A DNA stretch of 25,614 nt, taken from the IMG/VR virus record IMGVR_UViG_2671180631_000002; one strand, written 5' to 3'. This document shows, in pieces, positions 21,901 to 25,614 of this stretch. Position numbers: made by a program. Every line of letters starts with the position of its first letter. Within the stretch, counting starts at the first letter, position 1. This DNA comes from a virus (lineage: Duplodnaviria > Heunggongvirae > Uroviricota > Caudoviricetes).

Positions 21901-24900
21901 GCCAAAACGTCCGAGACGAACGCCAGGTCTTCTGAAACGGCAGCGGGACAGAGTGCCTCAGCTGCGGCAGGCTCAAAAACAGCGGCTGCGTCGTCTGCCA
22001 GCGCCGCGTCAACAAGTGCCGGGCAGGCCTCAGCCAGTGCCACCGCCGCCGGAAAATCGGCAGAAAGCGCCGCATCATCCGCTTCAACAGCCACAACGAA
22101 GGCTGGCGAAGCCACTGAGCAGGCCACGGCAGCAGCGAGGTCAGCTTCCGCAGCGAAGACATCCGAAACGAACGCGAAAGCGTCGGAAACCCGTGCAGAA
22201 TCCTCAAAAACGGCTGCCGCATCGTCCGCCAGTTCGGCGGCGTCATCGGCATCATCGGCGTCTGCTTCAAAAGATGAGGCGACCAGACAGGCGTCAGCAG
22301 CGAAGGGCAGCGCCACGACGGCATCCACGAAGGCGACAGAGGCTGCTGGTAGTGCGACGGCAGCAGCTCAGAGCNNNNNNNNNNNNNNNNNNNNNNNNNN
22401 NNNNNNNNNNNNNNNNNNNNNNNNNNNNNNNNNNNNNNNNNNNNNNNNNNNNNNNNNNNNNNNNNNNNNNNNNNNNNNNNNNNNNNNNNNNNNNNNNNNN
22501 NNNNNNNNNNNNNNNNNNNNNNNNNNNNNNNNNNNNNNNNNNNNNNNNNNNNNNNNNNNNNNNNNNNNNNNNNNNNNNNNNNNNNNNNNNNNNNNNNNNN
22601 NNNNNNNNNNNNNNNNNNNNNNNNNNNNNNNNNNNNNNNNNNNNNNNNNNNNNNNNNNGCGCTGAGACAGCGGCAAAACGGGCAGAGGATATTGCATCCG
22701 CCGTGGCGCTTGAGGATGCGAGCACGACGAAAAAGGGGATAGTACAGCTCAGCAGTGCGACCAACAGCACTTCCGAGTCACAGGCGGCAACGCCAAAAGC
22801 CGTTAAGGCCGCGTATGACCTGGCTAACGGGAAATACACCGCACAGGATGCAACGACAGCACAGAAAGGGATAATCCAGCTAAGCAGCGCGACCAACAGC
22901 ACGTCTGAAACGCTGGCGGCAACGCCAAAGGCAGTAAAAGCAGCCAATGACAATGCTGAGAAACGTCTGCAGAAAGATCAGAACGGTGCGGATATCCCTG
23001 GCAAAGACACCTTTACGAAAAATATTGGTGCCTGCCGTGCCTTCGGTGGGTCAGTAAGCACAACAACAGGAAACTGGACGACTGCACAGTTTATCGAGTG
23101 GCTGGATTCTCAGGGAGCATTTAACCATCCATACTGGATGTGCAAGGGTTCCTGGTCTTATGGCAATAATAAAATCATTACTGATACTGGCTGCGGTAAT
23201 ATTCATCTCGCCGGAGCTGTCATTGAAGTAATGGGGATAAAGTCAGCGATGACGATCCGCATTACCACTCCGACCACATCCAGCGGTGGCGGAACAACCA
23301 ACGCCCAGTTTACCTATATTAATCACGGAACAGATTATTCACCTGGCTGGCGAAGGGACTATAACTCCAGAAATAAGCCAACGGCATCAGAGATCGGGGC
23401 GCTACCGTCAGGTGGAACAGCAGTATCATCAGTTAATCTGGCTTCAAAAGGTCGGGTAGCCGCGCTGACAGACAATACGCAGGGGGCAGCAGGTCTTGAG
23501 TTATACGAGGTGTATAACAACGGATATCCAACAGCGTATGGAAATATCATTCACCTGAAAGGGATGACAGCCGTTGGCGAAGGTGAGTTACTCATCGGCT
23601 GGAGTGGTACAAGCGGTGCTCATGCTCCGGCATTTATTCGTTCACGACGGGATACGACCGACGCAAACTGGTCGCCGTGGGCGCAGCTTTACACCTCGGC
23701 TCATCCTCCTGCAGAGTTTTATCCAGTCGGTGCACCAATCCCGTGGCCATCAGATACCGTTCCGTCTGGTTATGCCCTGATGCAGGGGCAGACTTTTGAC
23801 AAATCTGCTTACCCGAAACTTGCAGCCGCTTATCCGTCAGGCGTGATCCCTGATATGCGTGGCTGGACGATTAAGGGCAAGCCCGCCAGTGGTCGTGCCG
23901 TATTGTCTCAGGAACAGGATGGCATTAAATCGCACACCCACAGCGCCAGCGCATCCAGTACGGATTTGGGGACGAAAACCACATCGTCGTTTGATTACGG
24001 CACTAAATCCACGAATAACACCGGGGCGCATACGCACAGTCTGAGCGGCTCTACAAGTTCAGCTGGGGCCCACCAACATAGTCAGACTGGGCCCAGAACG
24101 AATAGCGGGAGTCAACCTACTGGAATGTTTCCGGCAGGGAGTACTCAAGTTAGCGGGACTAATCAGGTTGGTATCAGTGGCTCATTAACCAGTGGCACCT
24201 CCCAATGGGTAGGTAAATCATCTTCAGAAGGAAACCATACACACTCACTGTCCGGCACAGCAGCATCTGCGGGTGCACACGCGCATACTGTCGGTATTGG
24301 TGCTCATACGCACTCTGTTGCGATTGGTTCACATGGACACACCATCACCGTTAACGCTGCTGGTAACGCGGAAAACACCGTCAAAAACATCGCATTTAAC
24401 TATATTGTGAGGCTCGCATAATGGCATTCAGAATGAGTGAACAAGCACGGACCATAAAAATTTATAACCTGCTGGCCGGAACTAATGAATTTATTGGTGA
24501 AGGTGACGCATATATTCCGCCTCATACAGGTCTGCCTNNNNNNNNNNNNNNNNNNNNNNNNNNNNNNNNNNNNNNNNNNNNNNNNNNNNNNNAACAAAAA
24601 ACAGCCTGATGCAGGTAGCCAGTGAGCATATAGCGCCGCTTCAGGATGCTGTGGATCTGGAGATCGCAACGGAGAAAGAAACCTTGTTGCTGGAAGCTTG
24701 GAAAAAGTATCGGGTGTTGCTGAACCGTGTTGATACATCAACTGCACCGGATATTGAATGGCCAGTAGCACCTATAGGGTAAATTCGTAATGATTACCTA
24801 AATACGTTATTCTTTTGTTAAAAAAGTGATTTTGCTATAGGTAGGGAGTATGTTCTTGGATTAAGAATAAAAAATCGCCATGAAAGAGCTTCATGGCGAG

Positions 24901-25614
24901 TACATAAACGTACAAAATGTGATGAAAGTAGAGTGGCGTAAGCCACTATATTAAGATATGACAATAGCGAAGAAAAGTAAATAACATTTTATGGACGTTT
25001 AATTGTTAATTATAAAAACTAGAGTGCCCGATATTGTTTATCTTGCTTTAAAATAATGTACTCAAACCAAATTTTTGAGCTAAAAGCTCAAATAATATAA
25101 ATGCAATAATAATGTTTAATAAGACAATTAGCTTGCTTTGTATTTTCATTTCGGAATACTGTTAAGTAACTTTGATGACCCTAACAATAGATCGGAATTT
25201 TCTTAGAGTCAATGGTCACTGTTTTTGCTTGCAAAGCAAATGTTTTGGTGGTTATAAGTCGTCTTAATATAGTCACGCATGCAACTTGTTCCATGCGGAG
25301 ATTAAAGATTGGAATATAACGCGAAGATGGAATTAAATTACATTTGCAATAATTAATTTATTATTACTCAATAATTACCGATATTATTATTGTAAATTAA
25401 TCATTAGAATGCAAAAAGAAATGTAACGGCAAAATAAGAGGACGATAGCTGAGAAAAAAGCGTGCTTTCCCAATCTGGGGCAAATCACGTCTGAATGACA
25501 CCTGAAAACAGGTGGTAGCCTCAAGAAGGCTGGTGATGCTGCCAACTTACTGATTTAGTGTATGATGGTGTTTTTGAGGTGCTCCAGTGGCTTCTGTTTC
25601 TATCAGCTGTCCCT

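What the first reader, a model, noticed from the sequence alone, without database searches (positions are those of the whole stretch)
24783..25531. AT-rich orphan region between tfa and IS1 with no long ORF
There is an abrupt drop in GC content after the tfa stop. The region has no ORF of 60 aa or more on either strand but several hairpins (for example AGTGGC-GTAA-GCCACT near 24930 and TTGAGC-TAAAA-GCTCAA near 25073) and a minus-strand terminator at its left edge. It could be a foreign cargo remnant, a small-RNA or small-protein locus, or the prophage-host junction region.
Basis: seen in the sequence. Interest (0 to 1): 0.45.

Follow-up and report, generated by a model that had tools for sequence, protein, structure and literature searches.

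The report
Hidden YncL-like small-protein gene in prophage
The "empty" AT-rich stretch after the phage tail-fibre assembly gene is phage cargo DNA, not host DNA, and it holds an unannotated 33-codon gene for a YncL-like small membrane protein followed by a very conserved hairpin and terminator RNA element; its right end was cut off by an IS1 insertion.

Summary
The region has 31.5% GC against 51-55% next door, no ORF of 60 aa or more, both named hairpins and a minus-strand terminator.

It is neither orphan DNA nor the prophage-host junction. The whole 749 bp lies inside phages mEp332, PhiR70_1 and ev099, between tfa and a YdeO/GadX-like AraC regulator gene.

The left 578 bp (24783-25360) is a mobile module found after tfa in about 15% of complete E. 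coli genomes, at three prophage sites. It reads as one leftward transcription unit:
- a conserved TTGACT-17-TATTGT promoter;
- a 33-codon ORF (25149-25048) homologous to the stress-induced membrane protein YncL. It is intact in all 55 copies read, and its variation falls mainly on third codon positions;
- a 3' region ending in an 84-nt hairpin, linker and terminator element (24949-24866). This element is 94% identical in a copy whose flanks are only 65-67% identical.

The element looks like an Hfq-type sRNA. It matches no Rfam family and is not PasB.

The right end is a fragment of another prophage module, cut by IS1, which also deleted 550 bp.

Expression and function are inferred, not shown. 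I rate it a new member of known kinds, of moderate interest.

The parts
24783..24865 (.). Spacer between the tfa stop codon and the 3' end of the leftward unit; poorly conserved
   Evidence: Only 66.7% identical (with gaps) in the diverged copy L008, while the adjacent 84-nt element is 94% identical.
24866..24949 (-). 84-nt conserved RNA element: 5' hairpin (24947-24932), about 18 nt unpaired CUACUUUCAUCAYAUUUU, a small hairpin, the intrinsic terminator (stem 24899-24875) and a U6 tract (24874-24869). It is the 3' end of the yncL-like mRNA and a candidate Hfq-type sRNA.
   Evidence: Fold z = -6.5. The terminator scan found it. It is 94% identical in L008, where the flanks are 65-67% and the ORF 82%. 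Ten sequence variants keep all stems, but only through wobble changes, with 0 compensatory pairs. No Rfam family fits: MicC scores 22.8 bits against a gathering score of 90, Esr41 15.6 against 102.
24953..24981 (-). Candidate internal promoter P2 (TTTACT-17-TATCTT), which would start an RNA of about 80 nt at the 5' hairpin
   Evidence: It matches 8/12, 8/12 and 7/12 positions with a 17-nt spacing kept in three diverged copies, and is one of only two minus-strand candidates conserved in all three. The match is weak and the promoter is inferred.
25048..25149 (-). Unannotated 33-codon ORF, MKIQSKLIVLLNIIIAFILFELLAQKFGLSTLF, a YncL-like single-pass small membrane protein
   Evidence: NCBIfam YncL NF000537: E = 1.3e-5, 25 bits, profile positions 1-28 of 30. 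BLASTP against K-12 YncL: 11/28 identical, ungapped from Met1, E = 2e-7. None of 20000 composition-preserving shuffles reach the score. All 55 copies are intact at 33 aa; the variable sites fall 13, 8 and 2 on codon positions 3, 1 and 2; there are 12 synonymous and 7 non-synonymous codon variants. A 5-nt indel just after the stop leaves an in-frame TAA.
25184..25212 (-). Promoter P1 (TTGACT-17-TATTGT) for the yncL-like unit; predicted start near 25177
   Evidence: Found by the scan. It matches 9/12 with identical spacing in L009 and L008, and the -35 hexamer is invariant in all aligned copies.
25213..25360 (-). Conserved non-coding block upstream of P1 and the right-hand boundary of the 578-bp module; a regulatory region or a 5' leader, function unknown
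   Evidence: Long invariant runs survive even in L008. The 37-aa ORF here loses its ATG in L005, L008 and L009 and is frame-broken in L008. BLAST homology in other prophage contexts ends at query position 578.
25361..25446 (.). AT-rich linker specific to the ev099/mEp332-type phages
   Evidence: It is not shared with the Qin-site or sit-linked copies.
25447..25531 (.). The first 85 bp of a 535-bp module that lies at prophage ends elsewhere; here it is cut off by IS1
   Evidence: Query positions 665-749 match many other prophages. Positions 665-1199 of the ev099 gap equal E. coli 042 L006 4001-4536, next to zinT.
25532..25614 (+). IS1 left inverted repeat and the start of insA, reading away from the region
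   Evidence: Read from the sequence and annotated as an IS1A transposase in L004. Relative to ev099, the 768-bp IS1 replaces 550 bp without a target duplication. The identical junction is present in 79 of 5426 genomes.

Best explanation
The region is accessory ('moron'-type) DNA of a lambda-like prophage.

Its left 578 bp form an autonomous leftward transcription unit set against the late tail operon. A sigma-70-type promoter (25212-25184) drives an mRNA of about 310 nt. The mRNA encodes a 33-aa YncL-like inner-membrane protein (25149-25048) and ends at a strong intrinsic terminator (24899-24869). That terminator also keeps leftward transcription out of tfa and stf.

The last 84 nt are under stronger sequence constraint than the ORF. 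They most likely act as RNA, either as the 3' end that stabilises the mRNA or as an Hfq-type base-pairing sRNA made from a weak internal promoter or by processing.

By analogy with YncL, the peptide made in a lysogen would partly depolarise the inner membrane and push cells towards a stress or low-metabolism state.

The remaining 171 bp are leftovers of the long AT-rich region upstream of a YdeO/GadX-like regulator gene, truncated by IS1 together with a 550-bp deletion.

Shown: the location inside phage genomes, the mosaic structure, ORF conservation and homology, the conservation island, the predicted structure and the IS1 deletion. Inferred: transcription, translation, membrane effect and sRNA activity.
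For: - Phage context.
- Distribution: the module follows tfa at attB-lambda, at the Qin (ydfJ) site and in sit-linked prophages. It is present in 829 of 5426 complete E. coli genomes.
- ORF homology to YncL.
- Coding signature and intactness in 55 of 55 copies.
- Linkage of ORF and RNA element in IMG/VR: each of the two independent pattern scans returned 48 loci and 47 are common to both. The one locus found only by the ORF scan (L068) carries a near-identical element; the one found only by the RNA scan (L048) has its match close to the contig end.
- Conservation island: 94% against flanks of 65-67%.
- Structure: z = -6.5 for the 84 nt and -5.5 for the 188-nt 3' region.
- Conserved promoters P1 and P2.
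- YncL biology: induced by heat shock and minimal medium, and its production causes sublethal membrane depolarisation and nucleoid condensation (PMC12542507).
- IS1 deletion.
Against: - No expression data of any kind are available.
- The ORF has no recognisable Shine-Dalgarno sequence (UAUUCCGAAAUG), whereas K-12 yncL has AAAGGUGG.
- The YncL profile score (25 bits) is below NCBI's cutoff of 35.
- In a 1.84-billion-protein search only the peptide itself and a 43-aa variant with a different C-terminus passed E = 0.001.
- Promoter-like sites are no more frequent than in shuffled sequence, and P2 matches only 8 of 12 positions.
- The RNA stems show no compensatory changes, because variation is too low.
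- One long-range pair varies G-C, G-U and A-U but is A.C in L019.
- All homologues are E. coli prophage copies, mostly 97-99% identical, so part of the conservation is simply recent common descent. Only the 78.7% copy (L008/L032) is really informative.
Confidence: 0.62

Rival explanations
1. The 84-nt element is only a transcription terminator and 3' stabiliser with no trans-acting role, and the small-protein gene is the module's sole function.
For: The terminator is canonical. No target could be identified: the unpaired stretch has no above-chance complementarity to its own mRNA or to K-12 yncL, with z between 0.1 and 1.1. There is no covariation. P2 is weak.
Against: A terminator needs only a stem and a U tract. 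Here the 32 nt between the 5' hairpin and the terminator stem (CUACUUUCAUCAYAUUUUGUACGUUUAUGUAC) are conserved at every position but one (C or U) in a copy whose neighbouring DNA is 65-67% identical. That points to sequence-specific use.
Confidence: 0.3
2. It is a type I toxin-antitoxin locus: the hydrophobic peptide is a membrane toxin held in check by an antisense or partly complementary small RNA.
For: The peptide is small and hydrophobic, and its homologue YncL depolarises the membrane much as TisB does. A plus-strand promoter-like site (24958-24987, ATGACA-18-TAACAT) would give an RNA antisense to the ORF. The module sits in mobile DNA.
Against: The downstream RNA is co-oriented with the ORF and not complementary to its leader or start region (z 0.1-1.1). 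By my reading of the alignment, the -35 hexamer of the plus-strand promoter is not kept in L008 (ATAGCA). The 5' leader region folds only weakly (z = -2.05). YncL itself is not known as a toxin-antitoxin toxin.
Confidence: 0.1
3. The DNA is silent, decaying AT-rich filler of the b-region type, probably bound by H-NS. The ORF and hairpins are chance features preserved only because all copies are recent relatives.
For: Low GC. No annotation in any genome. Most copies are 97-99% identical. There is no Shine-Dalgarno sequence, and promoter-like sites occur at chance frequency.
Against: In the 78.7% copy, divergence is strongly uneven (94%, 82% and 65%). The ORF keeps its start, stop and length, and its changes fall mostly on third codon positions. 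It matches an independent, experimentally verified protein family over its full length.
Confidence: 0.12
4. The region is the prophage-host junction, or ordinary host intergenic DNA.
For: It lies at the end of the structural gene block and next to an IS element.
Against: The same 749 bp lie inside three sequenced phage genomes, with phage genes on both sides. Host genes (ybhB, bioA) begin about 3 kb further on in L004. K-12 loci and species-representative genomes lack it.
Confidence: 0.01

Closest known systems
YncL (b4598), a stress-induced 31-aa inner-membrane protein of E. coli K-12
   Same: Similar length (33 against 31 aa) and the same layout: a short positively charged N-terminus, one hydrophobic helix with Asn at position 12, LF at 19-20 and [KR]FG at 26-28. 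The two align without gaps from Met1, with 39% identity over 28 residues.
   Different: It is encoded in prophage cargo DNA rather than between patD and ortT. It falls below the NCBIfam equivalog cutoff (25 against 35 bits). It has no Shine-Dalgarno sequence. Its 3' region is unrelated: K-12 yncL is followed by a long hairpin without a U tract. Its function is untested.
Phage 'morons' (for example lambda lom and bor): autonomous promoter-gene-terminator units inserted between backbone genes and expressed from the prophage. This comparison rests on established knowledge, not on a test run here.
   Same: It sits between the end of the late operon (tfa) and the att/int side. It has its own predicted promoter and terminator, a GC content about 20 points lower than its neighbours, and it moves between different prophages.
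   Different: The cargo is a 33-aa peptide plus a conserved RNA element rather than an ordinary-sized protein. Expression in the lysogen has not been shown.
sRNAs embedded in 3' UTRs that share the mRNA terminator (the MicL/DapZ type with an internal promoter, the CpxQ/SroC type made by processing). The comparison rests on established knowledge.
   Same: The conserved 84-nt 3' end has a 5' hairpin, an unpaired U/A-rich stretch and a terminator with a U6 tail, and a weak conserved promoter lies just upstream.
   Different: There is no evidence for a discrete RNA, for Hfq binding or for a target. The parent gene is phage-borne.
PasB and the other Pas sRNAs of EPEC prophages (PMC8550237; bioRxiv 10.64898/2026.05.13.724894)
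   Same: These are intergenic sRNAs on the minus strand within lambdoid tail-gene regions, about 83 nt long and ending in a terminator. The preprint lists IS009 among the Rfam hits most often found within 10 kb of PasB, and IS009 is also present here, inside tfa.
   Different: PasB lies between gpI and gpJ and has an unrelated sequence. The window's I-J gap is only 60 nt. The element described here is not PasB.
Prophage-encoded AraC-like regulators PatE, PsrA and PsrB (PMC10877973)
   Same: The gene that follows this region in intact phages is an AraC-family regulator closest to YdeO/GadX. Like psrA and psrB, it lies in lambdoid prophage cargo DNA behind a long AT-rich upstream region.
   Different: The gene is outside the window. 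Its identity with any Psr or PatE protein was not tested. Here IS1 has replaced 550 bp of its upstream region.

Membership tests
YncL family (NCBIfam NF000537, equivalog) | Whole-protein HMM score at or above the curated cutoff (35 bits) | tested here: not met
   25 bits, E = 1.3e-5, profile positions 1-28 of 30. This makes it a homologue, but not an equivalog by NCBI's threshold.
YncL family | Significant full-length similarity to E. coli K-12 YncL | tested here: met
   BLASTP gives 11/28 identities, ungapped from Met1, E = 2e-7. The Smith-Waterman score is 60, against a maximum of 54 in 20000 composition-preserving shuffles. Other small hydrophobic peptides (sequences recalled from memory) score 18-26.
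YncL family | A translated small inner-membrane protein that depolarises the membrane when produced | not testable with these tools
   Only analogy with PMC12542507 is available.
Hfq-dependent base-pairing sRNA | Rho-independent terminator with a U-rich tail at the 3' end | tested here: met
   A 10-11-bp stem followed by U6.
Hfq-dependent base-pairing sRNA | A conserved unpaired seed region | tested here: met
   CUACUUUCAUCAYAUUUU is predicted unpaired and is invariant apart from one C/U position, even in the 78.7% copy.
Hfq-dependent base-pairing sRNA | A discrete transcript, made from its own promoter or by processing | tested here: inconclusive
   P2 (TTTACT-17-TATCTT) matches 8/12 and is conserved in three diverged copies. 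There are no expression data.
Hfq-dependent base-pairing sRNA | Hfq binding and identified mRNA targets | not testable with these tools
   No host genome was available for target prediction. The own mRNA and K-12 yncL show no above-chance pairing.
Rfam MicC (RF00121) and Esr41 (RF02676) | Covariance-model score at or above the gathering threshold | tested here: not met
   22.8 against 90 bits, and 15.6 against 102 bits.
PasB sRNA | Sequence similarity to E2348/69 PasB and a position between gpI and gpJ | tested here: not met
   The PasB locus was read; the sequence is unrelated and the position is different.
Type I toxin-antitoxin system | An antitoxin RNA that is antisense or complementary to the toxin mRNA | tested here: not met
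   Duplex energies are at shuffle level, z 0.1-1.1. The only antisense promoter-like site is not conserved in L008 (and my reading of the alignment).
Phage moron | Own promoter and terminator, deviant base composition, and insertion between backbone genes in only some related phages | tested here: met
   P1 and the terminator. GC is 0.30 against 0.51-0.55. The module is present in 3 distinct phages (4 records of 50,697) and 829 of 5426 genomes, at three integration contexts. All of this is prediction; expression is untested.
Prophage-host junction (att site) | Host genes immediately beyond the region, and absence from free phage genomes | tested here: not met
   The region is internal in mEp332, PhiR70_1 and ev099. 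Host ybhB/bioA lie about 3 kb further on.

The most novel reading that the evidence does not exclude
The module is a previously unrecognised two-part lysogenic-conversion unit carried by about 15% of E. coli genomes. It would combine a phage-borne YncL paralogue that tunes membrane potential (giving dormancy, tolerance, or exclusion of superinfecting phage) with a new Hfq-dependent sRNA, made from the same 3' end, that reprograms host mRNAs. Peptide and riboregulator would then be delivered together by one 350-nt cassette that hops between lambdoid prophages.
Probability: 0.2. Interest if true: 0.6.

Novelty: new member of a known kind. Interest (0 to 1): 0.4.

Why it matters
Small proteins and prophage sRNAs are systematically missed by annotation. 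This ORF carries no annotation in any of the genome or phage records inspected, and no name in a 15-billion-protein collection. Yet the segment that contains it is present in 829 of 5426 complete E. coli genomes.

YncL was recently shown to depolarise the membrane and condense the nucleoid. A phage-borne copy would link that stress pathway to lysogeny and give a testable candidate for prophage effects on tolerance or phage exclusion.

The 84-nt element is a concrete new sRNA candidate outside the EHEC and EPEC strains studied so far.

If neither part is expressed, the finding is an ordinary piece of mosaic phage cargo DNA disrupted by IS1.

Tried and rejected
- **PasB.** It was suggested by the IS009/PasB association in the Pas preprint. 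I rejected it after reading the EPEC locus: different place and different sequence.
- **Rfam.** Only sub-threshold MicC and Esr41 hits, driven by the terminator.
- **Type I toxin-antitoxin.** No complementarity between the 84-nt RNA and its own mRNA or K-12 yncL.
- **37-aa ORF 25294..25181 (minus strand; annotated as hypothetical in PhiR70_1).** The ATG is lost in L005, L008 and L009 and the frame is broken in L008.
- **48-aa ORF 24964..24818 (minus strand).** It runs through the terminator into unconserved, indel-bearing DNA.
- **24-aa plus-strand ORF 24880..24954, which coincides with the conservation island.** Its ATG lies inside the terminator stem and it has no Shine-Dalgarno sequence. 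By my reading of the variants, they give about 5 non-synonymous and 2 synonymous changes, so there is no coding signature.
- **55-aa ev099 gp28 and the 52-aa window ORF at the IS1 edge.** No family hits, and the ORF is cut by IS1 here.
- **Hairpin at 25074-25092.** It is coding sequence and is not conserved.
- **L007 as evidence for an independent sRNA module.** It is just a 1190-bp deletion of the L005 arrangement.
- **Searches that could not help.** The search for homologous proteins refuses queries under 40 aa. tblastn against phages returned nothing, not even the four records that carry the identical ORF, probably because of the low-complexity filter. The genome-contig scan gave only 8 chance hits in unrelated phyla. 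PHROGs and Pfam found nothing. A literature search by sequence string found nothing relevant. nhmmer found no second copy in the window or in the K-12, EPEC or 042 loci.
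Full report
**1. Observation**

- The tfa stop is at 24780-24782, and the IS1 left end (GGTGATGCTGCCAACTTACTGAT...) begins at 25532.
- GC is 0.315 over 24783-25531, against 0.513 for stf/tfa and 0.555 for the rest of the window.
- No ORF of 60 aa or more touches the region; the longest are 52 and 48 aa.
- Hairpin AGTGGC-GTAA-GCCACT lies at 24932-24947, and hairpin TTTGAGC-TAAAA-GCTCAAA at 25074-25092.
- A minus-strand intrinsic terminator has its stem at 24899-24875 and a U6 tract at 24874-24869.

**2. Where the DNA belongs**

The complete 749 bp occur at 98.5-99.2% identity inside three sequenced temperate phages, mEp332, PhiR70_1 and ev099. In each, tfa is followed by a gap of about 1.5 kb, then an AraC-family regulator gene and IS2-type transposase remnants. 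In ev099, integrase and excisionase come next.

In the closest chromosome (L004) the prophage sits at the lambda attachment site, with ybhB and bioA about 3 kb beyond the IS1. The region is therefore internal phage cargo DNA in the position of the lambda b region. It is neither host DNA nor the junction.

**3. Mosaic structure**

BLAST against 5426 complete E. coli genomes splits the region into parts.
- **Positions 1-578 (window 24783-25360).** This part follows tfa in roughly a thousand genomes at about 96% identity. It also occurs in prophages at the Qin/ydfJ site (L005) and in prophages next to sitABCD (L009 at about 94%; L008 at about 79%).
- **Positions 665-749 (25447-25531).** This is the start of a 535-bp module that in E. 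coli 042 lies at a prophage end next to zinT.
- **Positions 579-664.** This is a linker specific to the ev099 type.

The left 328 bp are present in 829 of 5426 genomes. A scan of one genome per species found only chance matches in unrelated phyla, so the element appears confined to E. coli prophages.

**4. A hidden small-protein gene**

On the minus strand, 25149-25048 encodes MKIQSKLIVLLNIIIAFILFELLAQKFGLSTLF.

*Conservation.* In the 78.7%-identity copy (L008/L032) the ORF keeps its start, its length and an in-frame TAA stop, despite a 5-nt indel directly after the stop. All 55 copies retrieved are intact at 33 aa. Among six distinct intact nucleotide versions, 23 variable sites fall 13, 8 and 2 on codon positions 3, 1 and 2. 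There are 12 synonymous and 7 non-synonymous codon variants.

*Homology.* The peptide hits a single NCBIfam model, YncL (NF000537), at E = 1.3e-5 and 25 bits, covering profile positions 1-28 of 30. That is below the curated 35-bit cutoff. K-12 YncL (MNVSSRTVVLINFFAAVGLFTLISMRFGWFI) aligns without gaps from Met1 with 11/28 identities (E = 2e-7). None of 20000 composition-preserving shuffles reaches the observed score.

*What YncL does.* YncL is a verified small inner-membrane protein induced by heat shock and minimal medium. Its production causes sublethal membrane depolarisation and nucleoid condensation (PMC12542507).

*Annotation.* The phage-borne homologue is unannotated in every record inspected. 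It appears only twice, unnamed, in a 15-billion-protein collection. It has no PHROG or Pfam family.

*Weak points.* There is no Shine-Dalgarno sequence, whereas K-12 yncL has AAAGGUGG. The 1.84-billion-protein search recovered nothing beyond the peptide itself and a 43-aa variant with a different C-terminus.

**5. Promoter**

Promoter-like sites in the region are no more frequent than in shuffled sequence. Only two minus-strand candidates keep both hexamers and the spacing in three diverged copies:
- P1, TTGACT-17-TATTGT (25212-25184), lies 28-35 nt upstream of the ATG;
- P2, TTTACT-17-TATCTT (24981-24953), lies just upstream of the first hairpin.

**6. The conserved 3' RNA element**

Segment identities between the window and L008 are:

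| Segment | Identity |
|---|---|
| upstream block | 80% |
| P1 | 90% |
| 5' UTR | 74% |
| ORF | 82% |
| first part of the 3' region | 65% |
| last 84 nt (24949-24866) | 94% |
| spacer towards tfa | 67% |

The 84 nt fold into a 6-bp 5' hairpin, an unpaired stretch of about 18 nt (CUACUUUCAUCAYAUUUU), a small hairpin and the terminator with U6. The fold z-score is -6.5, and -5.5 for the whole 188-nt 3' region.

Ten (89-nt) sequence variants of the element, plus one more seen in L068, preserve the stems only through wobble changes. There are no compensatory double changes because there is too little variation.

The ORF and the element travel together. Two independent IMG/VR scans, one with an RNA pattern and one with a back-translated peptide pattern, each returned 48 loci, and 47 are common to both. 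The locus found only by the peptide scan (L068) carries a near-identical element with one wobble change and a one-base insertion. The locus found only by the RNA scan (L048) has its match close to the contig end.

The architecture is that of an Hfq-type sRNA sharing the terminator of its parent mRNA, but it belongs to no described family. Rfam gives only MicC at 22.8 bits and Esr41 at 15.6 bits, far below their thresholds. PasB was suggested by its reported association with IS009. It lies between gpI and gpJ in EPEC and is unrelated in sequence.

**7. Mechanism proposed**

The left 578 bp behave as a moron: a self-contained unit, opposed to the late operon, that a repressed prophage can express.

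P1 would give an mRNA of about 310 nt for the YncL-like peptide. The terminator ends that mRNA and shields tfa and stf from antisense transcription. The last 84 nt act as RNA, either as a stabilising 3' end or as a base-pairing sRNA made from P2 or by processing.

By analogy with YncL, the peptide would lower membrane potential and favour a stress or low-metabolism state in the lysogen. All expression and function steps are inference.

[quoted passage not shown] Pairing was no better than for shuffled seeds (z 0.1-1.1).

**8. The right end and IS1**

Compared with ev099, the 768-bp IS1 replaces 550 bp and has no target duplication, which indicates an insertion with an adjacent deletion. About 210 bp remain in front of the AraC-family gene.

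That gene is closest to YdeO and GadX, at 148 and 110 bits, both below the equivalog cutoffs. This resembles the prophage regulators PatE, PsrA and PsrB described in EHEC (PMC10877973), but identity with them was not tested.

The lost DNA includes a fragment resembling a tRNA or tmRNA 3' end. Exactly this IS1 junction is present in 79 of 5426 genomes. The uninterrupted sequence across the insertion point is present in 829 genomes. insA reads towards the regulator gene. Whether the allele changes expression of the regulator is unknown.

**9. Verdict**

The finding is a new, unannotated member of known kinds: the YncL family of small membrane proteins, a phage moron, and an sRNA candidate of the 3'-UTR type. 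Interest is moderate. It would rise if the 84-nt RNA proves to be an Hfq-dependent regulator, or if the peptide affects tolerance or phage exclusion.

Noticed in passing
window 24498-24742 (+): Rfam family IS009 (RF02111) matches at 157 bits inside the tfa coding sequence, and at 229 bits in ev099 (L003 4762-4960). This 'sRNA family' coincides with the 3' half of tail-fibre assembly genes, so hits to it mark tfa rather than an independent RNA gene.
   Followed up: partly
window 24538-24592 (also 17399-17695 and 22375-22658): These are masked N runs. The 55-N run in tfa stands for more than 55 nt: tfa is 582 nt in relatives but only 362 nt from start to stop here. As a result tfa looks frame-broken and splits into two ORFs (24421-24609 and 24609-24782).
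   Followed up: partly
window 25532-25614, and L004 8833-9806: IS1 replaces 550 bp of the AT-rich region upstream of a YdeO/GadX-like AraC regulator gene. There is no target duplication, and insA reads towards the gene, about 210 bp away. The identical junction is present in 79 of 5426 complete E. coli genomes from chickens, pigs and humans. Any effect on expression of the regulator is untested.
   Followed up: partly
L003 (ev099) 5867-5918: A fragment resembling a tRNA or tmRNA 3' end (Rfam tmRNA positions 346-363, E = 5.5e-4; ARAGORN finds no full tRNA) lies in the 550 bp that the window has lost. It sits in a 535-bp module that in E. coli 042 is at a prophage end next to zinT. It may be a relic attachment site.
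   Followed up: partly
window 25213-25345 (-): This non-coding block upstream of the yncL-like promoter has long invariant runs even in the 78.7% copy (for example GGAACAAGTTGCAT and GTGACTATATTAAGA). It holds no conserved ORF, no conserved sigma-70-like promoter and only weak structure (z = -2.05). Its function is unexplained.
   Followed up: partly
window 16603-16662, compared with L059 4257-4496: In EPEC E2348/69 the gpI-gpJ gap is 240 bp and encodes the sRNA PasB on the minus strand. In this window the same gap is only 60 nt, with a short GC hairpin, and has no PasB.
   Followed up: yes
L005 6346-6421 and L008 4587-4686: Prophages at the Qin site and next to sitABCD carry a second, partial tfa 3' end downstream of the yncL-like module. 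In those contexts the module is therefore bracketed by tfa sequence. L007 is a 1190-bp deletion derivative whose breakpoint falls at the 5' edge of the conserved hairpin.
   Followed up: partly
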